Shown one piece after another: positions 4,996 to 59,165 of a stretch of 64,000 bases of DNA; position 1 is the first letter of the stretch; every line of letters starts with the position of its first letter. Location of the stretch: positions 1,440,524 through 1,504,523 of the forward strand of contig MU053873.1 of NCBI GenBank assembly GCA_013239625.1. Reading direction: 5' to 3'. A model generated the notes under the pieces. It did no database searches. It was not told the DNA's origin and saw only the letters and a list, made by a program, of their open reading frames with translations. The DNA comes from Lama guanicoe. Taxonomy: Eukaryota. The position numbers were made by a program, and so were the translations under genes.

Positions 4996-5089
4996 AAAAT
5001 AGTGTAGTCTAGTTAATCTTTCAACTTTCAGCCAATCAAAAAAAATTCTGTTTTCTTTTGGAATGTATGATTTCCTTTTAGAGAGACCC

Positions 5090-5325
5090 TGTAGTACAGT
5101 GGTTAAGAACATGGGCTCTGGAGCTAGAACATCTGGAATGGAATCCTTGCTCTGTAGTTTACTAGTTGATAGTCAGTCCTGGCTAGCCAATCTTGTGCTT
5201 CAATTTCTTCATCTATAAAATGATGATAAAATAATGCCCATCTCCTAGTGTTGGTAAGGGTTAAGTTAGGTAATAAATGTAAAGCACTTATTATAGTGTC
5301 TGGTACTTAAGTGCTAAGTGTTACC
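5090..5325 (+). mobile_element. MIR SINE, near full length
   Basis: 'agtggttaagaacatgggctctggagctaga', 'cttcaatttcttcatctataaaatg' and 'atgtaaagcactta' match MIR head, core and tail. Confidence 0.85.
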
Positions 5326-5974
5326 ATTAATTTGTTTCCCGATGAATTTGCCTCACTAATGATTCTACTTCAATAAATATTTAATGTAACATATTTTTTC
5401 TGAGCACATCCCAATAGATGAAAAGGCTGCCAACACTGTTTAGAGTTGCAGGGGAATGTCATCTTGCTGTTACAAATATGGAACAATTTATAAGAGGAAA
5501 ATAGAGCGTTAGTTAAGTACAGTTGCTAAATTAATATATATTTCAGAAGCCTGCAAAAGGTTTCTACCAATGATATTTTACCAATGCTTCAATTTATTTC
5601 AAAATCTGTTTTAAAATCATTTTTTGAGCTGTGAGAAGAGGCATTTTTAACATTATTTTATTGAGTAATAGTCATTTTACAATATTGTGTCAAATTCTAG
5701 TGTAGAGCACAATTTTTCAGTTATACATGAACATATATATATTCATTGTCACATTTTTTTCACTATGAGCTACCACAAGATCTTGTTTATATTTCCCTGT
5801 GCTATACAGTATAATCTTGTTTATCTATTCTGCATTTTAAAATCCCCAGTCTGTCCCAACCCACCCCCTGCCCCCTTGGCAACCACAAGTTTGTATTCTA
5901 TGTCTATGAGTCTGTTTCTGTTTTGTATTTATGTTTTGTTTTGTTTTGTTTTTAGATTCCTCATATGAGTGATC

Positions 5975-6320
5975 TCATATGGTATTTTTCTTTCTCTTTC
6001 TGGCTTACTTCACTTAGAGTGACATTCTCCAGGAACATCCATGTTGCTGCAAATGGCATTATGTTGTCTGTTTTTATGGCTGAATAGTATTCCATTGTAT
6101 AAATACACCACATCTTTTTTATTCAGTCATCTGTCGATGGACATTTAAGCTATTTGCATGTCTTGGCTATTGTAAATAGTGCTGCTATGAACATTGGGGT
6201 GCAGGTGTCATTTTGAAGTAGGGTTCCTTCTGGATTTATGCCCAGGAGTGGGATTCCTGGGTCACATGGTAAGTTTATTCCTAGTCTTTTGAGGAATCTC
6301 CATACTGTTTTCCACAATGG
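5975..6320 (-). pseudogene. L1 ORF2p extreme C-terminal fragment
   Basis: Translates PLWKTVWRFLKRLGINLPCDPGIPLLGINP...DTCTPMFIAALFTIAKT, the conserved ORF2 C-terminal segment, with a premature stop. Confidence 0.9.
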
Positions 6321-6463
6321 CTTTCCTTGCTTCCCTCTCCCACTCTTAATGATTTAGATGTCTTCTTTTACAATTTTGTGTTTATTCTTTTTGTAATTCA
6401 TGGCAGTTATCACCTTTCCAGTTATGAGCTTCTCATTTTTGTAGCATCCTGCTTCTTTTCTAT

Positions 6464-7350
6464 TTAGAGTAGACCTGTCTGTATTTCTTTTAGCATGGGT
6501 TTAGTGTTGCTAAACTCTTTTAGTTTTTGCTTGTCTGTGAAGTTCTTTATCTCTCCTTCTATTCTAAAGGATAGCCTTGCTGGATAGAGTATCCTAGGCT
6601 GCATCTTGTTTTCATTCAGGACTTTGAATATATCTTGCCACTCCCTTCTGGACTGTAGTGTTTGTGTAGACAAATCAGCTGAGAGCCTTATGGGGGTTCC
6701 CTTGTAACGCACTCTTTGTTTTTCTCTTGCTGCCTTTAGGATCATTTCCTTATCCTTGACTCTGGCCATCTTGATTATGATATGTCTTGGTGTGGGTCTG
6801 TTTGGGTTCTTCCTGTTTGGGTCCCTCTGAGCCTCCTGTACTTGGATATCTGATTCCTTTAGGTTTGGGAAGTTTTCAGTCATAATTTCTTCTGATACCT
6901 TTTCAATCCCCTTTATTCTTTCTTCCCCTTCTGGAACCCCTACTATGTGTAGATTGGCACACTTTATATTATCTCATAGGCCCCTTATATTGTTTTCATT
7001 GTTTGTTATTTGTTTTTCTCTCAGCTGTTCTGATTGGGTGCTTTCTGTTGTCCTGTCTTGTAGGTCACTTATTTGTTCCTCTGCATTATCTAGCCTGCTT
7101 TGTACAGCCTTTAGGTCAGCTCTCATCTCAGCAAATGAGTTTACTAATTCTACTTGGTTCTTTATAGCTTCTATTTCATTTTTGACATATTTTATATCTC
7201 TAAACACTATTTCTTTAGTTCCTTCAGTACTTTGATCACTTCTTTTTTGAAATCTTGATCTAGTAGGCCATCAATGTTTGTTTCCTTGATCGTGCTTTCA
7301 GGGGATTTTTCTTGATGTTTTAATTGGGAGTGGTTCCTCTGCTGCTTCAT
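6464..7350 (-). pseudogene. L1 ORF1p (RNA-binding chaperone), about 295 aa, with two lesions
   Basis: Manual translation: MKQQRNHSQLKHQEKSPE...VLKELK, then a 1-nt frameshift near 7215, then ...SRLDNAEEQISDLQDR...NENNIRGL*, where * is TGA at 6974-6976 (probably from TGG). It continues DNIKCANLHIVGVPEGEE...ENFPNL...TPRHIIIKM...ILKAAREK...PIRLSADLS...RREW...YPARLSF. These are canonical ORF1 coiled-coil, RRM and CTD motifs. Confidence 0.93.
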
Positions 7351-8065
7351 ATTGCTCATATCTCTCTGGCAGTGTGGCTTAAGGAGTATCAGTTATCTAG
7401 TTCTCCTGGAGACGGTGTGCTCTTAATGATTTTATCAAGAGGTCTTTGTGTCTTTGCCCTGTTTTGCGAACTCAGCTTGCTGTTTCCAGAGGCCCTCTGT
7501 TGGTGCCGTCTTCTGTGCTGCTCCCAGTGGCTGTCGGCTAGCAGATCGTGCCCCCTCCCAACACTGGGTCAGATGCTAAGCTCTTACCGTGGGCGGGCGG
7601 GTCACTCCCCCTCCCAATGCCGCAGTCAGATGCTGTGCTCGGGGGGGGGGGTCAGGTGGGCGGATCGCGCCCCCACCCAGCCCCATGGTCAGGTGCTGCG
7701 TTCCTGCCAGGAAGGCGGGTGGCCACCTGCCCTCTCCTGGTGCTGGTCACTCTGCTGCTCTGTACAGCTGCCCGCTCCACCATGGGTCGGTGTTTCCAAG
7801 GTAGGCTTGGTGAAGACCACGGAACGGCCCCGCCTCTGCTTCGTGCCAAATTTCAGATCCTTGTTTGTCCTGGCAGCACGAGTTCTCTGAGGTGCCAGGG
7901 CAGAAAGATCGTATCTGCCTCAGGCTGTAAACAAGTCTTAGTCTTGCCTAGGAGGTTGCAGATCCCCCTGGGTGTGGATTCAGGTCTAGGCCCCACCCCT
8001 GCCCCGGGTGCTGCGCACCCAGAGAGAATATGGCGGCTGTGGCTGAGCCCCTCCAAAGAGGCATT

Positions 8066-8220
8066 ACTGTAGTCAAGAATCAGCAGATCTGGGATTCTAG
8101 CATTGTGACTTTAGACCAGTCACTTCCTCCCTGTGAGATTTAATTTTCTCATGTGAAAAGGAGGTGGTTGGAATAGCTGATCTTAAAAATACCTTCAAGT
8201 TGATATTTTAGAATTCTGGG
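8066..8220 (+). mobile_element. MIR3-like SINE adjoining the L1 insertion site
   Basis: 'gaatcagcagatctgggattctagc...tgtgactttagaccagtcacttcc...ttttctcatgtgaaaaggagg...attcta/attctg' pattern. Confidence 0.6.
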
Positions 8221-9570
8221 ATTTAGGGCCTAAGTGCATAACTTGAAAGTAGTTTATTTGTCTGTACTAGCCATAGTGGTGAATATTTTTCAGATTCTAA
8301 GAAATAGGAAATTTATCAGTGCCCTTCCTGACTTTGCCTGCTTTGACAAAAGATAGACCACAGTTCATCTCCAAATGGAGATTAGGCCTCGGTTGCATGG
8401 TGTTTTGAGATGTTGCTTTTGTTTGAATATATTTTGAATTGCAAGTAATTTGGTTGAGCAGTATATGTCAAGGATGAAATAGCCTTACAAGGACGTGAGG
8501 CTTGTTTACACAGGGTTTATATAAATACACAATAACAATGAACATTGGGAGTGTTGCTGTTTTATACAGGAAAATGTTTCTGGCACCACACCCACCTCCC
8601 TCAAGAGGAAAAGAGTGAGGAAGGAAGAAAGACTGATTTGCTTGCTCTCTGTCTCTTTTTAAAATCACATATGGCAGATATTTGTGTGTGTTAAAAACAA
8701 ATCATGTTGCTGTATCCATGAAGCTATGCACATATATGTGCACCTTTCTAAACTGAGTCAGAGGGGCATTGTCAGGTCTGACTGGGGATATAGTACAATG
8801 TACTTCTAATCTCCAAGTGTTTTAATTGAAACTCAAATCCCTGCCTAGGGACCTAAAATTAAAGCTGAAAGTGTGGAGGCTTTCACTTAAAATGATATAT
8901 TGGTTATTCATCTTGTTGACAATAAGTAGATAATTTAAGCTGATTCAGTAAGAGTCGTCTTTACTGTTATAGCTCCAATGTGTTTCTGACTATTCTGAGG
9001 AGAGAGACAAAATACCAAGCAATTGGGGACCATATAATATCCTGAAGGCTGCACTATTGAAATACTGTGTGTTCTACATGCTATTGGTTTCGTGAAAACA
9101 AAGCAAGAGACCACCCTCATTATGGAGACTGGGCAGTAGCCCAAGCAGCTGTGAAAGTGAATAGAAAACTGAGTCTGTCTCGGCTTTTCCATTCATTGTG
9201 TCCAGAAGTTTAGCATCACCAAGCAGAGAGGTCACTTTGCTTATTAGGGTTTGAGAGTCATACTGATATTGTTGCAGGTTAGATCTTTTTATAACAGTAA
9301 GTTGAATTTTATATTAGCAGAAGTGGTTTATGTAAGTAGTGGTTTTGATGTGATGAATTGACAGACACCTTAGCAGGAAAGGACTCCTTATGTGGGCATC
9401 AGGGGTTTAAGGAATCCTAGAATTGGATTTTAGATTTAAGGTCATGGGAACAGTGACAAAATAAAATATTTTTACTAGTTGTTTTTAGAATTAAATGCAG
9501 TAATCTTTAAGTGTTTTATTCACAGCAATGTGCTAATGACTTTGGATAATCAGATATTTTACTACAACAT

Positions 9571-15365: not shown

Positions 15366-15904
15366 ATGCTTTTGCTACTCTGCAATACTGCCTCTCCAGA
15401 CTGAAGTGGGTCAGAAGGTTAAGAATTAAGCATGTGGACCTCATGGACAGGAACAGGAGAGGAAAAACATGCTTTTTCTTATGGATATTTAACCAACAGA
15501 TTATTATTTTTTAGCAGAAGAGATTGATTATAAGTGATTAGATTCCATACAGCATACAGAACTACACAAACCAGTCTTGTTAGGCATGTTTCTTGGCTCT
15601 TCCTGGATTTCTTATGTAGCTGGATCCTCACATTTGTTGGGTTAGTTTTGGGATTTATTTTACTGTCACAACTTTGGTAAGGAGGCTTTTTTTATTGTTA
15701 TATATAGACCATAGTTTTTTATATTGTTCCAGCAGTGTTTGATGATCTCATTCTCCTGTATACTCCTGTTTAAAATAAACAGGCAAAACGAAATTGTTTC
15801 TCCCTCCTCTAAGTTATATTTAAAATGTGCTAACTTTGGCCTTTATTCACCAATAATAACAGTGGTAGTTTGTCTTGTTGGAAGTGGTATGCTAACTATG
15901 CTTT

Positions 15905-18424
15905 TCTTCTTTTTTTTAAACTTTTTATTTTGAAATAATTTTAGAGTTACAGAAAAATTGCAGAAATGAAACAAGAGTTCTTATATATCCTTCACATAGC
16001 TTTCTTTAATGTTAACATTTTGAATAAGCATAATATAATTATCAAAACTAATACATTAATACAGGTACAATGCTATTAACTAAACTACAGCCCATGCAAG
16101 TTTCACCATTTTTTCCCCCTAATGCCCTTGTTCTGCCCTTAGAGACAATTCAGGATCCCACATTGGACTTAACTGTCATTGTCTCCTTAAGTTACCTCAC
16201 ATATGTGACTTGTCTTCCTTATTTTTATCAGCCTTTCCTTCAGCATTTTTTTTGTAGTAGAGGTCAGCTGCTGATAAATTCTTTCACCTTAAAAAATCTT
16301 TTTGTCTTATTTTTTATTGTGGTGGAATACACATAACATAAAATTTACCATCTTTACCATTTTTAAGTGTACATTTCTGTAGTGTTAAGTGCATTCACAT
16401 TGTCATGCAGCCTATCTCCAGTGCTTTTTTCATCTTGAAAAACTCCATAGCCATTAAACAACAAGTCTTCGTTCCTGCCTCTCCCTGTTCCCTGCCAACC
16501 ACCGATTCTACTTTCCGTCTCTGTAAATTTGACTACTCTAGGTACCTCATATAAGGAGAAGCATACTGTATTTATCTTTTTGTGACAGGTTTATTTCACT
16601 TAGCAGAATGTCCTCAAGGTTCATCTTTTCTTGTAGCATTAACCTGTGTATCTGTGTTTCAGAGTTTCCTTTCTTTTTAAGGCAAACAATATTCCATTGT
16701 TTGTATATACCACATTTTGTTTATCCACTCATCTGTCAATAGAAACTTGGGTTGCTTCCACCTTTTGGCTATTATGAATAATGCTGCTATGAACATTGAT
16801 GTACAAATATCTGCTTGAGTCCCTGCTTTCAGTTCTTTTGGGTATACACCCAAATGTGGAATTGCTGGATGCTATGGTGATTCTGTTTTTAATTTTTTGA
16901 GGAATGACCATACTATTTTCCATATTGGCTTTTATATATCTGAAAATATTTATTTTTTGCTATGCTATTTGAAAGATATTTTTCACTAAGTCTAGAGATT
17001 TCCTTCATAGATTTGACGATGGTGCTTCACTTGTCTCTCTTGTACTATTTCTAGTGAGAAGTCTGCTGTTCTTTCTTAGCTTTGTTCCTGTGTAAAATCT
17101 TTATTTTCTTGGCTGCTTTTAAGATTTTTTTCTTCATTAGTATGTTTAAGAAAATAGATCGTGATGTGCCTTGTAGTTTTTATTAAATAGTTTTTATTTT
17201 TAAAATAATAGCTTTTATTAAATCTGGAGATTTTTCAATTCTTATTTTCTCAAATAAGGAAGTTTTTCCTGCCCTCTCTCTCTTCTCCTTTGGAGACTCC
17301 CAGTACACATACATTAGACTGCTTGAGGTTGTATACAGCTCACTCATGTCCTGCTGCAATTGGTACATCTTCAAATTTACTAGTCTTGTCTTTAGTTTCT
17401 TATTTGCTGTTAGTTGCATTCTCTGCATTTTTTGTTTGACACATTATGGTTTTATCGCTAGACCTCTGATACGTGTCTTTTAAAAAATATCTTCCATGTC
17501 TCCTTAACATGATCATTTTTTTCTTTATTTTCTTGAATAGCATTATAATAGCTCTTTTAATTTCCTTGTCTTCTCTGTGTTATTTCTGGTTTGGTTTCTA
17601 TTGAATTATTCTGCTCACTATAGATTGTATTTTCCTGCTTACTTGCTTGCCTGATAATTTTTGATTGGATATGAAACCTGGTACATTTTGCTTTGTTGAA
17701 TGCTGGGTATTCTTGTAGTTACAAAATATTTTTTCACTTTGTTGTGGTGCTTTGTTGCTTTTAATTATTTGGAAATAGTTTGACCTTTTTGAAGCTTGTT
17801 TTTTACATTTTACATTTCAGGTGGGACCAGAGCAACATTTTAGTCTAGGCTACTTTTGCCCCACTGTTGAGGCAAAACCCTTTAAAATACTTCATGTCCT
17901 ATGTATTGTGAAGCCTTTTCACTCTGGCTGCTAAGAAGACTATTCCTGGCTCTGTGTGAGTTGTGGAGAGTGTTCCACCTGCTCCTTTCTTGTGGTTCTT
18001 TCCCTAGCCTTGGATGCACTGCCTACTTCTCAGATTAAGGCTTGGGGTAGAGAGACCCTCTGAAGATTTCTGCAGTTTTCTCTCAGGGCAGCTGTCTCCT
18101 CTCCAGTATTCTGCCCTGTGAATTCTACCCATCACAGCCTCTTTGAGCTCTCCACGCTGTCTTCTCAACGAAGGGAGATTTGGGGGCTTTTCTTGGGTTT
18201 CCCTTCCCAGAGCTGCAGCTTGAAATTCTCTATGCAGTGAGCTTGAGCACTCATAGGGTTTACCTCTTTTTTGGTCCTCTCTCAGGGATCATGGTCCTTT
18301 GCTGCTTTTTGTCCAGTGTATGAAAAATGTTATTTCTTGTATCTTTCACCCAGTTTTTCAGTTGTTTAAATAATTAGGTAAATAAGTCTTGTCCCTGTTA
18401 CTCCATCTTGCCTGGAGGCAGAAT
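15905..18424 (-). mobile_element. Ancient L1 (L1MC/ME-like): 3'UTR, ORF1-like region and 5' end, interrupted by a younger L1
   Basis: 3' end 'tttttattttgaaataattttagagttacagaaaaattgcag', ORF1-like 'gtgagaagtctgctg...cttggctgcttttaagattttt', and 5' terminus 'ccctgttactccatcttgcctggaggcagaa'. Confidence 0.65.
16308..16928 (-). mobile_element. L1MB-like 3' fragment nested in the older L1
   Basis: 'tttattgtggtggaatacacataacataaaatttaccatc' through the ORF2 tail 'gaataatgctgctatgaacatt...gggtatacacccaaatgtggaattgctgg'. Confidence 0.85.
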
Positions 18425-26354: not shown

Positions 26355-27870
26355 TTTTTTAAAAAACAGCTTTACTAAGATATTATTGACATACTACAAA
26401 TTACACATATTTAAAATGTACAATTTGATAAATTTTGACATGTGTATACAAACATGAAACCATCATCTCAATCAAGAGAGTGAACATACCCACCACCCAT
26501 AAAAGTTTCCTTGTGTGTGCCCTTTGTGGTTCCTCCCAGCAGTACCTTCCCCAGCAACATCCAGTATCCTTTCTGTAAACTACTTTGCATTTTCTCAATT
26601 TTTATATAAATGGAATCATATAGTATGTACTCTTTTGTGTCTGGCTTCTGCCACCTGGCATATTAAGCATAATTATTTTGAGTTTTATCCATGTTCTTGC
26701 ATACATCAATAGTTCATTGCTTTTTATTGTGGAGTGGCTTTCCTTTGTATTGATATACCACAATATATTTATTCACATGTTAAAGTGAACTTGAATTGTT
26801 TCAGTTTTCGGCTGTTATACATAAGACTGCTATAAGAGTTTATGTATAAATCTTTGATGGATATATATTTTTTATTTCCTCTTGGGTAAGTAGGAGTGGA
26901 GTGCCTAAATCGTATGGTGGGTATATTTAACTTTTAAAGAAACTGATCAACTGTTTTCAAAAATGGTTGTATCATTTTACAGTCCCACTGTTAGGTGATG
27001 AGAATTCTAGTTTCTCCATATCCTTGCCAACACTTGGCATGTATGGTCAGTCTTTTTTATTTAGTCATTTTAATAGCTGTATAGTGGTATTTCATTATGG
27101 TTTTAATTTGAATTCCTCTAATGACCAATGATATTGAACATCTTTGTTTTGTTTGTTTTTGTTTTGTTTTATGATGGGGAGGTAATTAGGTTTATTCATT
27201 GATTTATGTTTGGAGGAGGTATTGGGGAGGTAATTAGGTTTATTCATTGATTTATGTTTGGAGGAGGTATTGGGGATTGAACCCAAGACCTTGTGTGTGC
27301 TAACCAAACACTCTACCACTTGAGCTACACCGTCCCACCTTGAACATCTTTTCATGTGCTTATTTACCATTCATGTATCTTCTTTGCTCAGGTGTCTAAA
27401 TCTTTTGCCATTTTTTCCCCATGGAGTTGTTTGTTTTCTCATTGATGAATTTTGAGGGCTCTTCTTAACCTGAACATAAATCCTTTTTCACATATATGCT
27501 TTGCAAAGTTTTTCTCAGTTTCTGGGTTATCTTTTTATTCTCCTAATTGTCTTTTGGGGATCAGAGGTTTTTAATTTTTGTGAAGTGCTTTTTTAAAATT
27601 TTATTTTATAGATTGTACTTTTGGTGTCACGTGTAAGAAATTTTTGCTTACTCCAAAGTCATAAAGATTTATCCTGTGCTTTCTTCTAGATGTTTTTTAG
27701 TTTTAGGTCTTATATTTCAGTCTATGGTTGATTTTTCAGTTGATTGTTGTGTATGGTATGAACTGTGGGTCTACATTTTTTTTTTTTTTTTGCATATGGC
27801 TATTCAGTTGTTCTAGCACCCTTTGTTGAAAGGCCATCCTTTCTCCACTGCATTGCCTTTGTCTAAAACC
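26355..27870 (-). mobile_element. Old L1 (L1MB/MD-like) 3' fragment with ORF2 tail
   Basis: 3' end 'cagctttactaagatattattgacatac...aaaatgtacaatttgat' and ORF2-like 'ccatatccttgccaacacttgg' and 'ttctagcaccctttgttgaaa'. Confidence 0.85.
27146..27339 (-). mobile_element. Camelid tRNA-derived SINE (Vic-1-like) nested in L1
   Basis: The minus strand carries an A box TAGCTCAAGTGG and a B box GGTTCAATCC, the tail 'cctaattacctcccc', and an (AAAAC)-like tail. 12-bp TSD TTGAACATCTTT at 27134-27145 and 27340-27351. Confidence 0.88.
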
Positions 27871-35534: not shown

Positions 35535-37070
35535 ATGTTTATTTGTGGTGGTAAAATATACATATCATAGGATTTATCATTCTAACCATTTTTAAGTGCA
35601 TGATTCAGTGGCGTTGAGTACATTCACAATTATGCAAGTATCGCCACTTTTCAGGTCCAGAACTTTTTCATCACCCAAACAGAAACTTAGTACCCATTAC
35701 ATATTAACTCCCCATTCCTCCTAGGTTACTCCCAGCCCCTGGTAACCTTTGTTCTACTTTCTGTTTTTATAACTTTGCCTATTCCAGGTACATCATATAA
35801 GTGAAGTCATAAAATGTATATCCTTTTATGTCTGGCTTATTTCATTCAGCATAATGTTTTCATGGTTTAGCTGTGATGTAACACATATCAGAATTTTGTT
35901 CCTCTTTATGACTAATTTCTATTGTATGTATATGCCACATTTTGTTTGTCTACTCATCTGTTGATGAACACTTGGTTATTTCTACCTGTTGGATATTATG
36001 AATAATGCTGCTATGAATATTGACATACAAGTATCTGTTAGAGTCCCTGCTTTCTATTTTTTGGGGGTATATACCTAGCAGTGGAATTGCTTGATCATAT
36101 GGTATATCTATGTTTAACTTTTTGGAGAACTGCCAAACTGTTTTCCACAGTGGTGTACCATTTTATATTCCCACCTGCAGGGTACCAGAGTTCTGATTTC
36201 TCTACATCTTTGCCAATACCAATTTTTTATTTTTGCCATTTTTTGGATAATAGCAATCCTAGTGGATGTGAAGTGGTTTCTCACAGAGGTTTTGATTTTC
36301 CTAATATTTAATGACGTTGAACATCTTCTCTTGTGCTTGTTAGTAATTTGTGTATCTTCTTTGGAGAAATGTCTTTTCAAGTCCTTGGCCCATTTTTACA
36401 TTTTTTTGTTGTTGACTTATAGGAGTTCTTTATATGTTTTGGATATTAATCCCTTATCAGATATATGATTTGCAAATATCTTCTCCCATTTCTTTGGATT
36501 GTCTTTTCACTCTGTTGATAGTGTCCTTTGTTATGTGAAATTGTTTAGTTTTGATGAAGTCCAGTTTGTCTATTTGTTTCTTCTGTTGCTTGTGCTTATA
36601 GTGTCATATCCAAGAAAGCATTGCCAGATCCATTGTCATGAAGCTCTTCCCTTATGTTTTCTTTGAAGATTTTTATACTTTTAGCTCTTACCTTTAGGTC
36701 TTTTATCCATTTTGAGTTAATACCTTTACATAGTATAAAGTAAGAGTCCAGCGTCATTCTTTTGAATGTAGATATCCAGTTTTCCCAGCACAGTTTGTTA
36801 AAAAGACCTCTCTTTCTTTATTAGATGGTCTTGGCACTGTTGTTGAAAATCAATTGACCGTGGATATGAAGGTTTATTTCTGGTCTCTATTCTATTCCAT
36901 TGGTCTGTGTCTGTCTTTATGCCAGTATGACACTGTTTTAGATACTGTAGCTTTGTAGTTAAGTTTTGAAGTCAGGAAGTATGAGTCTCACAATTTAGTT
37001 CTTTTTCAAAGTTGTTTTGGTTATTCAAGGTTCCTTGAGATTCGATATGCATTTTAGGATAGGTTTTTTT
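35535..37070 (-). mobile_element. L1MB-like 3' fragment (~1.5 kb of ORF2 tail and 3'UTR)
   Basis: 3' end 'gtggtaaaatatacatatcatag...ccatttttaagtg'. The ORF-track peptide KRHFSKEDTQITNKHKRRCSTSL is an ORF2 C-terminal motif. Confidence 0.9.
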
Positions 37071-37109
37071 GTTCTATCTGCTATTAGTATCTTTGTTAAT
37101 TTAAATTAA

Positions 37110-38356
37110 TGAACAGCTACATGTAAAAGAATGCAATTAGAACAGTCTCTAATACCATATACAAAAATAAACTCAAGATGGATTAGAGTTAAAAAAGCAA
37201 AATGAATTAGAGTAAAATGTAAGACTAAATACTATAAAACTCCTAGAGGAAAACATAGGCAGAACATTACTCTTTGATGTAAATTGCAGCAATATTTTTT
37301 TGGATCCGTCTCCTAAGGCAAAGGAAATAAAAGCAAAAATAAACAAATAGGACCTAATTAAACTTAGAAGCTTTTGCACAGCAAAGAAAACTATCGACAA
37401 AACGAAAAGACAGCCTACTGAATGAAAGAAGATATTTGCAAATAATATGACCAATAAGGGGTAAATATCCAACATATATAAACAGCTCATACTACTCAAC
37501 ATCAAAAAACGAACAATCTGATTAAAAAATGGGCATAATAACTGAATAGATATTTTTCCAAAGAGGAAATGCAGATGGCCAACAGACATATGAAAAGATG
37601 CTCAACATTGCTAATCATCAGGGAAGTGCAAATCAAAACCACACTGAGATATCTGACTTCATACTGGTTTGAATAGCTATCATCAAAGAGAACATAAGCA
37701 ACAATAGTAGGCCAGTATGTGGAGAAGAGGGAACCCTCGTACACTGTGGGTGGGAATGTAAATTGGTGCAGCTACTGTGGAAAACAATATGGAGGTTTCT
37801 CAAAAAATGAAAAATAGTACTACCATATGACCCAGCAATTTCACTCCTGGGTATATATTTGAAAAAAATACTAATTCAGAAAGATATATACACCCCAATG
37901 TTCATAGCAGCTTTATTTACAATTGCCAATGTATGGAAGCAGCCTAAGAGTCCATCAACAGATGAATGGCTAAAGAAGATGTGGTATAGATACAATGGAA
38001 TACTACTCAGCCAAAAAAAAGAATGAAATTTTGCCATTTGCAGCAACATGGATGGACTTGGAGGGCATCACGCTAAGTGAAATAAGCCAGACAGAGGAAG
38101 ACAAATACTGTATGATATCATTTATATGTGGAATCTAAAAAATAAAACTAGTGAATAAAACGAAAAAGAAGCAGACTCACAGATATAGAGAACAAACTAG
38201 TGATTGCCAGTGGGGAAAGGGAAGAGGGGAGGGACAATATAGAGGCAGAGGGAAAAAAAGGATTATTATGGAATTATGTGAAATCATGTGTGTGAAACTT
38301 TTGAAAATTGAAAAACACTGTAGGATTTAAAGAATCTTTAGTTCATTAAAAAAAAA
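37110..38356 (+). mobile_element. Younger 5'-truncated L1 (ORF2 C-terminal region, 3'UTR and A-tail)
   Basis: 'ataaaactcctagaggaaaacataggc', 'gacatatgaaaagatgctcaacattgctaatcatcaggg', 'gcagcaacatggatggacttggaggg', and terminal A9. No TSD found. Confidence 0.92.
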
Positions 38357-45830: not shown

Positions 45831-46170
45831 CCATGTTCGTACCCGGCTTTCTTCTCCTCCTTCCATTCTTTATTCATGAAAGAATTCAACCTCTGGTTTC
45901 ACGTGGAAGCTGGAGCCTTACCAGCTCCTTTGGAGGTGAAAGGAGAGAAAAAATCCTTCCTTCCCCTCCTAACTAAGGTCAGGGAGACTCATTTTGTCAC
46001 CCCTTTGGGAAAATTCCCTGCCCTAATGGTGGGCTATCTTATTTCATGCAGATTACAGAATTAGGATGATTGTAAAATAACTTTGAGAATGGAACATAAA
46101 TGGAGTGCCTGTGTGGTTGCTAATTGTACTACTTACCATCGCTAATAATGCCAATTAGAAGAATGGATTT

Positions 46171-46395
46171 TTTTCCCTTTTTTAAAAAATTGAGTTATAA
46201 TCAGTTTACAATGTTGTGTCAATTTCCAGTGTAGAGCACAATTTTTCAGTTATACATGAACATAAATATATTCATTGTAGCATTCTTTTTCGCTGTGAGC
46301 TACCACCAGATCTTGTATATATTTCCCTGTGCTATACAGTATGATCTTGTTTATCTATTCTACATACTCCTGTCAGTATGTACAAATTTTGAGCT
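46171..46395 (-). mobile_element. Short 5'-truncated young L1 3' end, same family as 5646-8055
   Basis: Shares 'ttacaat.ttgtgtcaa.ttc.agtgtagagcacaatttttcagttatacatgaacat'. 11-bp TSD AGAATGGATTT at 46160-46170 and 46396-46406. Confidence 0.9.
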
Positions 46396-49300
46396 AGAAT
46401 GGATTTATTATTTTCAGTTATATTTTCTTTAAACATTCTGGATCTTTCAGCATGTTAGAGTCAGTCCTATAGTTTCTTAACACTTTCAGATTCTTGGGTT
46501 TGGCAGGTGGTATCATGGTTTAAATACTAACAACAAGGTATCTGTCATGTGTTAAGCATATTTCAAAAAGACCTTAATATCTGATTTGTTGAATCAGGAA
46601 GGAAAGCTGAAGAAATTTTGAGTTGAGATTATTTTAAAGAAAGCATGGTCGAATTTGCTGTTGTTTTCTTGGTAATGTTGCTTCAGGTAGTGTATGTCTC
46701 ATTATTTTCTCTGGTCAGTGGCTCTTCTTTAAGACACAGCTTGAAGGCACTTGTATTGAATATAGTCTAATTTCTGAGTTGTGTTGCAAGATGGCACACT
46801 AGATTTCTGGACCAGTGATCACAGGATTGGTATATGTGTGGTTAGCATACTTTTTCGTAGGCATAGAGCAGACACCAAATGACTGGTAGAATGACTAAGG
46901 GTGGGTATGTTCTTTTATGAACAACAACATATTCTTAATACTGATATAATCCTTTTCTTTGTCCTTTCTGTAAGCTCTCAAGGAAATTAAAAATACTAGA
47001 ACACTGGGTTAATCCAAGTTTTTACTGTTCATGTAATTTTTAAAATAGGTAGAAGCTAGTTTTATATCAGCGTTTGAAAGCTATAGGGCAGTTGTACTGG
47101 TGTGCAGAATATATAACTCAGTGAAAATGTTGCTGCAAATAGACTAGCTCCAATAGATGTTTATAGATTTTTGCACTTGTTCCAAATTAAATTATATTCA
47201 TCTCCAGTGCCACGTTCTACATATCTCACAAAAAGGACTTACCTGTGCTCCATAAAAGTAATCATTTAGAATTCTTGAATTAGACTGAGGACAATGTTAA
47301 TTCTTTGTATCAGAAACTTTTAAAGACACGTGATTTTCTTATCCAGGATTTTCTATCTAATCTCTATTCTATTTTATTTTATTCTATATTTAAACAACTT
47401 CGTTGGTTATACATTTTGGAGATCATTCTGTGCATTTTGGAGATAGTTCTTACTATTAAGTAAATCTGTAGATTTTGTATGCATCATTCACAAAGTGTTG
47501 AACCTTTCCATCATGTTTCACATGTATGTATGTTCCCTTCTGCCGCCAATTAGAAGTTGTCATAGTGAAAATATTTCTTTTTGCTTAACTTTTTTTTTCT
47601 TCTGTGAGAATAGCCTGGTTCTCTAGTAGCAGAGGCTGATGTGAATTAAAAGGTGTTTGGAATTTCCTCTCATGGGTCTAATAAAAATTTTAGTCTAGGT
47701 CTGGATATGTGTATTTTAATTTCTCACATTTATTTGAAAAATACTTCATACTTTAAGCTATTCTAGTTTCTCTTATCTGGTTATTCTCCATTGTTTAGTT
47801 ATAATATGACCAACAATTTGCTCTACAAATTAGACATGCTGCATAGATACATTTATTTGGTAGAATTATGGTTTGACTTCAGCTCTGATATGTAAATTTG
47901 ACTGGATCTGATTGAAAGAATTGTTTTCAACACATGATTTTACATATATATATGTGTATGTAATTTTACACAAACTTTTGTGTGTATCATACATTTATAA
48001 AATCATAAACAGCTTATAAATTAACTTCATCTTGCTCTGCCCACTTTATCTATGAAGATTATATAACCAAATCAGTATATTAAGCCAATTTAAACCAAAA
48101 TAAAAAGTTAAAGAAATTCCAGATTTTGCAAAATAATGTATTTTTGAATAAAAAAATATTGGTAATATACAAGCTAAAATGAAAGTGAATTCTGGATAAT
48201 TGAATTAAAGTATGAGTTTAATTATTGTTGTGCTTTTATATTTTTCCTAAATTTTCTAGAATGAAAATATATTCTTTAATATGTATCTTTAAAGTAACAT
48301 AAATGTAGTTTAAATCTCTTTGAAAGAAACATTTTAAATTTATTTGTTCTACTTAGTTGAAAAATGTTTTTTATACGATTAATAATAAGAAAAGTATATT
48401 AGCATAAAGAATTTGAGTTTAAGTTATGAAATTAACTGTAAAATAAGTTTTTAGTAATGTCACCTTTTTATTTCACCATCACATTAACATGTTAATTGTG
48501 CTCTGAGAACATAGACCATATGTAGCAATTAGGAAATTTAACACACAAAAAAAATTGTAGTTTTTATAAACCAAAGATAGGTAACTTTTTATTACGGCGT
48601 TTTAAAGTATGTCCAGAGTATAAATACATACCAAAATTGCTAATGCTAAAATATCTTTATGATATAATCTGAGCTAGTTTAAAATTACAAAAACTCATAA
48701 GGATAGAAACAGGAAGTCTGACAAATTCCAAAACAAACATGAAATTTACCCATGTTGTTATGACTTTGCAATTAATTGAGCAGCTTTTTTTCTTCGTCTG
48801 TTTTTTTGATGTATTGGTCTCTAAATGCCCACATTTCTTATGCATTTATCTTCAATTCACCTTAATTAGCTGGTTGAACAAAGGCCGTACTCTTGTGCCT
48901 CTAGAGATAGATGCTTCTTGGGATCCTCCGGGCATTAGTCATCATTAGGATTGTTTTAGCCTTGTTAAAGATGCTACAGGTTGTACTCCTTTGGAGACTT
49001 TAAAATATTTTCCCTTCCTACTCATCCAGTTTAATTCAGTATTTCAGTGTATGTGTAACGCTGAAAAAGCATCTAAACAATAAAAAATGTGATATTTTCA
49101 GAGCATTTGTTAAACCTATAAAATGTTATTTTCTCTACTCTGGTCATTTTATAGAGGACTTTGATTATAGATCCTGTTTATTAGAGATCCTTGAATTCAT
49201 AAATCAATTTTGACATTTTCTTTGGTCGAATGATAATGTGACTTATTAATAATTACTCTACTAACTTCCAATTAATGACAATTGTGACTTTATATTAGAT

Positions 49301-56424: not shown

Positions 56425-59165
56425 ATCTATTCACTCACTGAAGGACATTTGTATTGTTCCCTTTTGGGGGAAATTATGGATAGAGCTATGGTGAATATTC
56501 TTGTACAGGTTCATGTAAACATACGTTATTTCTCTGGGATAAATACCTAGAAGTTGGATTGATGGATCATATAGTAAATCTATATTTCACTTTATAAGCA
56601 ACTGAAAAACTATTTTCCAGAAATTTGCATTCTACCAGCAGTGTTTGAGAGTTCTAGTTGCTCTGTGTCTTCATCAGCACTTGATATTGGCATTGCTTTT
56701 TGTTTATTTGTTTGCTTTAAAATAGGTGAATAGTGGTTTACTTTGCATTTCCTTGACTAATGTTGGCTAATGGCTAATAATGTTGAACATCTTTTTTTTT
56801 TTGTGCTTACTTGTTCAAATCTGCCCATTTCTTATTGGGTTCTTTATATTTTAACTCTTAAGTTTTCATAGTTCTTTATATTTCAGCATAATTCCTGAAG
56901 GATATTTTCCTGAAGGATTATAGAATTCCAGGTGTACAGTTCTTTTCTAACAGCCCTTTAAAAGTCTGTCCACTGCTTTCTGGCCTCCACGGTTTGTGAT
57001 GAGAAATCTGCAGTAATGTGAAATGTTATTTACCTGCAGGCAATGTGGCATTTTTCTCTGGCTGCTTTCAAGATGTTTTTATTTGTTTTCAGTTTTCAGT
57101 AGTTTGATTATGATGCTTCTAGACATGGATTTCTTTGGTTAATACTGTTTAGGATTTGCTGATCTTGAATCTGTAGGTTTATGTCTTTCACAAAATGTGG
57201 GAAATTTTTAGTAATTTGTTCAAGTTTTTTCCCTGCTCCATACCCCTTATTGTCTCCTACTGGGATGACAATGACATGAACATTAGAGCTTTTGTCATTG
57301 CCCAACATATCACTAAGGCTCTGAACATTTTTGTTTTTTAATTATTTTTCTCTGTTGTTCAGATGGGTACTTTCTTTTGTTCTGTCTTTAAATTCACTGA
57401 TTCTTTTCTTTGTCATCTATGTTCTGCTATTGAGCCCATTTCTAAATATTTCACTTTACTTATTTTTATGCTTAAAAATTTTTATTTGGTTTTTCTTTAT
57501 ATCTTTTATTTCTTTGCTAGGAGTGTGTATGTTTCCATTTTTCACAAGACTATTTGCCCTTACTTTTTGCAGCATGGATATAATAGCTACTTTTAAATAG
57601 TTGTCTGATAATTTTAACTTCTTTTTTTTTTAACATTTTTTATTGATTTATAATCATTTTACAATGTTGTGTCCAATTCCAGTGTTCAGCACAATTTTTC
57701 AGTCATTCATGGACATATACACACTCATTGTCACATTTTTTTCTCTGTGATTTATCATAACGTTTTGTGTATATTTCCCTGTGCTATACAGTGTAATCTT
57801 GTTTATCTATTCTACAATTTTGAAATCCCAGTCTATCCCTTCCCACCCTCTACCCCCCTGGTAACCACAAGTCTGTATTCTCTGTCCATGAGTCTTTAGA
57901 TTCCACATATGAGCGATCTCATATGGTATTTTTCTTTTTCTTTCTGGCTTACTTCACTTAGAATGACATTCTCTAGGAGCATCCATGTTGCTGCAAATGG
58001 CGTTATGTTGTCGGTTTTTATGGCTGAGTAGTATTCCTGATAATTTTAACTTCTGTGTCATTTCAGAGTTGGCATCTGTTGATTGCCTTATTTCCTTGTG
58101 AGTAGAGTTTTGTTTGTTTGTTTGTTTGTTTGCGTTCTTCATCAGCCAAGTAATTTTGTTTATATCCTGAATGTTTTGGAATTAACTTCATTGCATCTTG
58201 TTCATACTTTAAGAAGGATGTAGTTTGTTTTAGTATACAGTTTACCTGGTTAGGTTTAGGCTATAAGTCTCAACCCATATTTTGTGGACTTTGGTTCCAA
58301 AGTCAGTTAAGTTTTCACAGTTTTTGTAGCTTTACTGGGACCTTTCTTTTGTATGCACTACCCACTGGTCAGTTTGAGAACTAGGTGGTAGTCTATTCTC
58401 CAGTTTAGTTCTCAAAACCTTGGTATGCTATTTAGGGTCAGATCCATATACTTCTTTATGGAATCTCTTATAAGCTTCCTCCTATATCTGATTTCCCCAA
58501 CACTTTCCAGCTCTCTGCCTACCCTCCTCCTTACCCATGCTCTAGCCAAAACTAGGGCTTCAGTTTCCCTGCTCTGGCATGCAAGTCCTGTAATTATGTC
58601 TTTATGAGGCATCAAGCAATGAGAGGGCAGAGAGAGAGAGGAAAGCATTGGGACTCATCCTGAGCCCCTGGGACCACAGCTCCTGTGATTAGGGTCGTCT
58701 TCCTCAGAATTTTATATGCCTGCCCAGCAACCACTGCTGTTGCTGTCCCTTCCACTGTCAGTTTCCCTGGGATGTGGCCTGGGAAAGAATGGAAAAGTGA
58801 TTTTTTAAATGGGATTTTCTCCACTCTTTCTGATCCTTAGGAGTTCTCTGTCTTGCATCTCTGACCAGAAGAAGAGGACTTTTCTTGGAGTGCATTCTGT
58901 TTTTACCAATGAGTACTTCCTCATTTTGAGTTGCCTTTGAATCCAAAATAGGTGATACCAGATGGGAAGGATAAACATAACAAAACAGGAAACCCATTGC
59001 TGATTTGGCACTACTTTGAAGTCTATTCTCCTTCCTCAATTCACCTGCTCCCATTTACTTACTGTTCAGAGTCCTCAGAGAGCTATTCCATGAAGTCTTT
59101 CCAGGATGTGGTTGTATTCAGTGGGAAAGATTGGATGCTTACTCCATCTTGCCTAGGAATGGAAC
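56425..59165 (-). mobile_element. Ancient L1M composite (ORF2-tail piece, ORF1-like piece, 5' end)
   Basis: ORF2 tail 'tctgggataaatacctagaagt', ORF1-like 'ccactgctttctggcctcc...tgatgagaaatctgc', and 5' end 'ttactccatcttgcctaggaa'. Confidence 0.65.
57623..58036 (-). mobile_element. 5'-truncated young L1, same family as 5646-8055, nested in the old L1
   Basis: Perfect 18-bp TSD CTGATAATTTTAACTTCT at 57605-57622 and 58037-58054, a T-tail, and high similarity to 5646-6092. Confidence 0.95.

What the first reader, a model, noticed from the sequence alone, without database searches (positions are those of the whole stretch)
5636..8065. TSD-flanked ORF1-only L1: candidate non-autonomous half-L1 family in camelids
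Seen: one 2.4-kb insertion bounded by a 10-bp TSD. It contains a CpG-rich 5'UTR, a complete ORF1 with only two lesions, a 143-nt spacer, then only the last ~115 codons of ORF2 and the 3'UTR. The endonuclease and reverse transcriptase coding regions are absent. Known: ordinary L1 copies are 5'-truncated rather than internally deleted, and HAL1 elements are ORF1-only L1 derivatives mobilised in trans in several mammals. Inference: this RNA may have been retrotransposed already lacking ORF2, supplying ORF1p in cis and borrowing ORF2p, and could belong to an amplified family.
Basis: partly seen in the sequence, partly recalled or inferred. Interest (0 to 1): 0.72.

Follow-up and report, generated by a model that had tools for sequence, protein, structure and literature searches.

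The report
Dead camelid L1 missing most ORF2
This is an old, broken copy of the common LINE-1 jumping gene that has lost the middle part encoding its copying enzyme; it is most likely a one-off accident, though it could belong to an uncatalogued parasitic "half-L1" family.

Summary
The anatomy is real. A minus-strand camelid L1 sits between 10-bp TSDs (5636-5645, 8056-8065). It has a 696-nt CpG-rich 5'UTR, a full-length ORF1 broken by one frameshift and one stop, and 141 nt of spacer joined directly to the last 122 codons of ORF2. Endonuclease, RT and the zinc knuckle are gone (about 3.6-3.8 kb, inferred).

The family claim could not be tested: no camelid genome was reachable, and no read or contig was examined across the junction. 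Indirect evidence leans slightly against an established half-L1 lineage. The ORF2 remnant is no more diverged than ordinary camel-type copies (10 of 100 residues against 4-12%), ORF1 is not significantly better preserved, and no camelid HAL1 name turned up. Weak hints in favour are three stops in the remnant against one in ORF1 (p=0.075) and two rare changes shared with one dromedary copy.

Best reading (0.58): a single near-full-length L1 with a private internal deletion, made during or after insertion. Rival (0.30): a HAL1-like family moved in trans. Both are known kinds. One junction search of a camelid assembly would decide.

The parts
8056..8065 (.). Target-site duplication, copy at the element's 5' end (AAGAGGCATT on +)
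   Evidence: chance 127 of 200,000
7360..8055 (-). L1 5'UTR, 696 nt, GC- and CpG-rich; whether it is complete is not established
8027..8037 (-). YY1-like motif GCCGCCATATT, nt 19-29 of the element; same orientation as the mouse L1 Tf motif; suggests the 5' end is at or near a real start (inference)
   Evidence: sequence; motif GTCGCCATCTTG / GCCGCCATTTTG in passages of PMC11602158
6464..7359 (-). ORF1, full length but dead: frameshift near 7213-7216, stop at 6976-6974, two single-codon gaps against P0003
   Evidence: Pfam; tblastn with P0003; 247 of 298 residues identical
6323..6463 (-). 5' part of the inter-ORF spacer, 141 nt; a second copy of this spacer exists (P0381, 84% identity over the matched stretch)
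6320..6323 (-). Deletion junction GGAAAG|CCATTG; the AG could come from either side; four codons after the last Cys of the ORF2 zinc knuckle
   Evidence: found once in the window
5952..6320 (-). Last 122 codons of ORF2 plus its stop; three internal stops
   Evidence: translation; tblastn of camel ORF2 P0376 residues 732-854 on 6323-5955, 85%
5646..5951 (-). L1 3'UTR, 306 nt, ending like the paralogue at 57.6 kb; residual poly(A) of 3 A
   Evidence: 91% identical to the fragment at 46189-46365
5636..5645 (.). Target-site duplication, copy at the element's 3' end

Best explanation
One copy of the ordinary autonomous camelid L1 lineage was inserted by target-primed reverse transcription, reaching (nearly) to its 5' end and making a 10-bp TSD. 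About 3.6-3.8 kb, from inside the spacer to just past the zinc knuckle, was lost at this locus only: either the cDNA re-primed further up the same RNA during insertion, or a later genomic deletion was joined with little or no microhomology. The copy then decayed neutrally and has left no family. Shown: anatomy, TSD, lesions, camelid L1 ancestry. Inferred: TPRT, size of the loss, uniqueness of the junction. Not resolved: whether the loss happened during or after insertion.
For: The ORF2 remnant differs from the column majority of 25 camel-type ORF2 fragments at 10 of 100 residues, inside their range of 4.0-12.4%, and 2 of the 10 are each shared by 5 of 25 copies. So it shows no extra decay from a long history in an ORF2-less source. 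ORF1 has 7-9 private changes in 159 columns, like P0003 (8) and P0242 (13); ORF1 against remnant is not significant (p 0.12-0.45 for replacements; p 0.15 for disabling lesions). Both UTR types match ordinary L1 copies, and the 3'UTR is shared with 5'-truncated copies in the window. Camelid non-LTR names seen in a Repbase annotation are L1-1, L1-2 and L1-3_Vpa; all 6 HAL1 entries there are short matches to HAL1-1D_Tbel or HAL1-3_ML, none camelid. A full-text search for HAL1_Vpa and HAL1-1_Vpa found nothing.
Against: The junction was never searched in a camelid genome, so uniqueness is assumed. The remnant has 3 stops in 122 codons against 1 in 299 for ORF1 (p=0.075). Dromedary P0168 shares two rare replacements plus two common ones with this copy (chance 7-33% over 25 copies). 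The camel ORF2 comparison set is small and selected by gene models. A young source with few rounds of copying would also show no extra decay. In 3,611 somatic solo-L1 insertions the passages seen (10.1101/2024.08.27.596794) describe internal deletions at inversion junctions, typically short, not multi-kb collinear ones.
Confidence: 0.58

Rival explanations
1. HAL1-like non-autonomous family: a source L1 lost most of ORF2, kept its promoter, ORF1 and 3' end, made ORF1p in cis and borrowed ORF2p from full L1s. This is one decayed copy among tens to hundreds.
For: The layout fits HAL1 (ORF1-only, arisen several times: passages of PMC5753468; PMC5786205; about 7,500 rat copies, PMC2241872; HAL1_Ssc in pig, PMC6501411). 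A probably intact 5' end with a YY1-like motif and a clean TSD suit a short 2.4-kb RNA. Three stops in the remnant against one in ORF1 (p=0.075). P0168 shares two rare ORF2 changes, as a sibling from a source with unconstrained ORF2 would.
Against: No second junction copy was seen; the window holds 1. No significant ORF1 preservation and no excess remnant divergence. P0168 may be the orthologous copy or chance (7-33%), and its upstream DNA was not seen. No camelid HAL1 name. None of the 8 notes shown (of 13 on L1 ORF1 in this genome) describes this layout; these are unchecked notes and overlapping ones are withheld.
Confidence: 0.3
2. Spliced L1 RNA (SpIRE-like): a donor in the spacer was spliced to an acceptor after the zinc knuckle, and the product was reverse-transcribed, possibly repeatedly from different full-length sources.
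For: The upstream side ends in AAG, and an older L1 in the window reads CAG just before the retained ORF2 part. Spliced L1 retrocopies are known in humans (passages of PMC5860796). An unchecked note reports spliced mini-L1 copies in this genome (e1-8045153).
Against: The putative acceptor has no pyrimidine tract: 6 of 20 pyrimidines in the in-window paralogue (an older subfamily, not the parent). The base after AAG in the intact spacer is unknown, so a GT donor was not shown. The SpIREs described in the passages seen use 5'UTR donors.
Confidence: 0.08
3. Assembly mis-join that collapsed a full-length L1.
For: Long L1 copies are hard to assemble (general knowledge); no read support across the junction was obtained.
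Against: The window has no N. The two sides share at most a few bases on the evidence available, too few for an overlap or k-mer mis-join, and both ends belong to one TSD-bounded insertion.
Confidence: 0.04

Closest known systems
Camelid L1 (Camelus dromedarius 'LINE-1 retrotransposable element ORF2 protein' models; Repbase L1-1_Vpa / L1-2_Vpa, names seen in the supplement of PMC6726744)
   Same: ORF2 C-terminus 79-90% identical to six named dromedary models; ORF1p 83% identical to the unnamed intact P0003; ordinary 5'UTR-ORF1-spacer and 3'UTR.
   Different: About 3.6-3.8 kb of spacer and ORF2 is missing.
HAL1 (half-L1), e.g. RNHAL1 of rat, HAL1_Ssc of pig (Smit 1999; Bao and Jurka 2010: not held; known here from citing passages only)
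   Same: 5'UTR, ORF1, no EN or RT, L1 3' end, TSD.
   Different: Multi-copy status unshown; no evidence of selection on ORF1; keeps 122 ORF2 codons with ordinary divergence.
SpIREs, spliced integrated retrotransposed elements (Larson et al. 2018, PMC5860796; abstract part and passages seen)
   Same: TSD-flanked L1 with a precise collinear internal loss; junction AG is compatible.
   Different: The break lies in the spacer and ORF2, not the 5'UTR; acceptor context is purine-rich; donor GT untested.

Membership tests
Mammalian L1 | ORF1p with L1 RRM and C-terminal domains | tested here: met
   PF02994 and PF17490 above cut-off
Mammalian L1 | TPRT hallmarks: TSD, poly(A), endonuclease site | tested here: inconclusive
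   TSD met; poly(A) only 3 A; site AGT|AATG is non-canonical
Autonomous L1 | ORF2 with EN, RT and zinc knuckle | tested here: not met
   Only the last 122 codons remain, starting after the knuckle
HAL1 | Encodes ORF1p but no ORF2p | tested here: met
   Layout; this copy's ORF1 is itself dead
HAL1 | Many dispersed copies with the same junction and distinct TSDs | not testable with these tools
   No genome; the searched collections gave no camelid L1 at all; no read or contig examined at the junction
HAL1 | ORF1 kept under selection while ORF2 remains decay | tested here: inconclusive
   Single copy; p 0.075-0.45; remnant divergence ordinary
HAL1 | Match to a catalogued Repbase/Dfam consensus | not testable with these tools
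   Libraries not held; no camelid HAL1 name
SpIRE | GT-AG splice sites at the borders of the lost segment | tested here: inconclusive
   AG present in an older paralogue but no pyrimidine tract; donor side unseen

The most novel reading that the evidence does not exclude
An uncatalogued camelid HAL1-like family, caught early: it keeps promoter, ORF1, part of the spacer and the post-knuckle tail of ORF2, spread in trans on L1 machinery before or around the split of living camelids, and dromedary P0168 is a sibling copy. It would be another independent origin of HAL1 with its parent L1 still close enough to map the founding deletion to the base and to test selection on ORF1.
Probability: 0.22. 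Interest if true: 0.45.

Novelty: new member of a known kind. Interest (0 to 1): 0.24.

Why it matters
As a one-off deleted L1 it matters little: dead rearranged L1 copies are common. As a family it would add a camelid case to the repeated origins of HAL1 and allow a test of whether cis-made ORF1p gives an RNA an advantage in borrowing ORF2p. That is useful to retrotransposon specialists and to camelid repeat annotation, but it is not a new mechanism.

Tried and rejected
No whole genome was held. Junction pattern: 0 matches in metagenome and viral contigs. ORF1 probe P0003: 185, 121 and 6 pattern hits, none confirmed, in metagenome, genome and viral contigs. Spacer pattern: 0 in genome and viral contigs. 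blastn of most of the element: one 62-base match in a Fusobacterium plasmid, taken as chance, and none in phages. These show no camelid L1 was reachable, not that the junction is unique.

Junction-spanning protein search: none of the 120 listed (of 5,390) hits has the spacer peptide before the ORF2 part. I rejected this as evidence because a stop shared with P0381 precedes the junction. The idea of an in-frame spacer-ORF2 mini-protein was dropped for the same reason, and P0381 lacks the start Met.

A nested 5'-truncated L1 inside an older L1 was rejected: one TSD pair bounds everything and no ORF2 body follows the 3' end. I looked for host exons to place the locus; a crude splice-site scan gave no convincing exon, so host gene and orthology of P0168 stay open.

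RNA rows with shares 0.13-0.39 were not examined further and are not used. Earlier-finding look-ups by sequence, relatives, near and two word sets returned nothing. Bao and Jurka 2010 was not held. Supplements of PMC8605555 could not be read and may bear on whether a camelid HAL1 is already listed.

Full report
Observation. The element lies on the minus strand between two exact copies of AAGAGGCATT (5636-5645, 8056-8065), the only shared word of 7 or more bases between the end regions. A comparable pairing arose in 127 of 200,000 random trials. From the 5' end it reads: 696 nt of GC-rich UTR (CpG o/e 0.43 against 0.145 for the window); ORF1 from 7359 to 6464 with both L1 ORF1p Pfam domains; 141 nt of spacer; 122 codons of ORF2; a 306-nt 3'UTR; and three A. 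ORF1 has one frameshift, one stop and two single-codon gaps against P0003, an intact unnamed 300-residue relative with 247 of 298 residues identical. The ORF2 remnant has three internal stops. In dromedary ORF2 models the retained part starts four codons after the last cysteine of the zinc knuckle, so the knuckle is lost along with EN and RT.

Origin and age. Six of the 120 listed hits for the junction region are named Camelus dromedarius L1 ORF2, at 79-90% identity. The species of the window was not determined. The 3'UTR is 91% identical to a truncated copy at 46189-46365 and 81% to one at 57627-58037, which suggests about 4-5% divergence from its source (inference). Fourteen DNA rows from five studies and five coded organisms hold 0.69-0.74 of 391 sampled words of 5000-8700. 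Flanks plus words shared with paralogues would give only 0.46-0.56, so the insertion itself is probably present in them. One may be the window's own source, and nothing in that call speaks to the junction. A YY1-like motif at nt 19-29 resembles the mouse L1 Tf motif (passages of PMC11602158), so the 5' end may be genuine. A size budget from the L1-1_Vpa coordinate 6207 and an unchecked spacer length implies a UTR nearer 900 nt, so it may be slightly short. Most pig spacers are 390-529 nt (passages of PMC6501411); the loss is therefore put at about 3.6-3.8 kb (inference).

Family or one-off. The direct test could not be run. No genome was held, no read or contig was examined at the junction, and the collections gave no camelid L1 with any probe. 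In the window the junction occurs once. A protein search found no spacer-ORF2 product among 120 listed of 5,390 hits. That test is blind: a second spacer copy, P0381, ends at the same stop just before the junction.

Indirect tests. A long-lived ORF1-only source should leave a remnant more diverged than ordinary ORF2 and an ORF1 better kept. The first 100 remnant codons differ from the majority of 25 camel-type fragments at 10 positions, against 4.0-12.4% for those fragments. ORF1 shows 7-9 private changes in 159 columns, against 8 and 13 for its two close relatives. Fisher tests give p 0.12-0.45 for replacements, 0.15 for disabling lesions and 0.075 for stops alone; the direction favours the family reading, but none is significant. 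P0168 (KAB1266627.1) shares two rare and two common replacements. The chance of that is 7-33%, it was retrieved by similarity to this copy, and it may be the orthologue.

Mechanism. I favour (0.58) a near-full-length L1 inserted by TPRT that lost its middle at this locus only, by cDNA re-priming during insertion or by a later deletion; I cannot separate these two. The junction GGAAAG|CCATTG allows about two shared bases, judged from an older paralogue that reads CAG before the retained part. A HAL1-like family moved in trans is the main rival (0.30). Splicing (0.08) fits the AG, but the acceptor context is purine-rich (6 of 20 pyrimidines) and no donor was seen. An assembly mis-join is unlikely (0.04). 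These odds also rest on my judgement of how common each kind is, not on a count.

Known systems. HAL1 is described as an ORF1-only L1 derivative that arose several times (passages of PMC5753468; PMC5786205; PMC13756887), with about 7,500 rat copies (PMC2241872) and a pig entry (PMC6501411). The element is built like HAL1, but the defining multi-copy feature is untested, so I do not file it there. No camelid HAL1 appeared in searches for HAL1 with alpaca or camel, for HAL1_Vpa names, or in supplement 4 of PMC6726744. Repbase, Dfam, Bao and Jurka 2010 and the supplements of PMC8605555 were not seen, so absence from catalogues is not shown. Other papers seen as passages only: PMC3183009 (alpaca lists no young families), PMC8605555 and PMC6726744 main text, PMC5860796, 10.1101/2024.08.27.596794, PMC2912911. 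PMC13192797, PMC5203782 and 10.1101/2022.02.16.480772 gave nothing used.

Verdict. A real, old, dead camelid L1 with a large internal loss. It is ordinary if unique and a new member of a known kind if amplified. Interest 0.24; the novel case has probability 0.22 and would deserve 0.45.

Noticed in passing
window 15900-18400 (-): An ancient L1-type element whose ORF1 (tblastn hits 17330-16938) resumes near 16285 and is followed within about 350 bases by what looks like an old L1 3' end, an ancient HAL1-like layout (the 3'-end label is recalled, from no call; sequence).
   Followed up: partly
window 16310-16932 (-): A 5'-truncated L1 3' fragment nested in that old ORF1. Its 5' break falls within a few bases of the same ORF2 position as the junction studied here, also after AAAG. 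Coincidence or a preferred break point; one case only.
   Followed up: partly
window 57600-58053 (-): A 5'-truncated camelid L1 of another subfamily (81% to the element) with a 10-A tail and a duplication of about 17 bases at its ends, next to an ancient ORF1 at 56943-57608.
   Followed up: partly
window 46160-46410 (-): A short 3'UTR-only copy, 91% identical to the element over 177 bases, with an apparent TSD and a few extra bases at its 5' end.
   Followed up: no
window 27175-27334: A perfect 48-bp tandem duplication (27175-27270) overlapping a weak tRNA-like match on the minus strand (27262-27334, 34 bits), probably a tRNA-derived SINE; the duplication may be recent or an assembly artefact.
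   Followed up: no
window 36400-38240: Old L1 ORF2 pieces in opposite orientation (inverted arms 36402-36490 and 37421-37509; ORF2 hits on both strands), possibly a 5'-inverted L1.
   Followed up: no
window 1-64000: Steady G>C and T>A skew on the + strand with most L1 copies on the minus strand, as in a long intron transcribed on +; no convincing exon was found.
   Followed up: partly
protein P0126: A protein labelled Chrysemys picta bellii (turtle) in UniRef is 86% identical to the camelid L1 ORF2 remnant; probably contamination or mislabelling.
   Followed up: no
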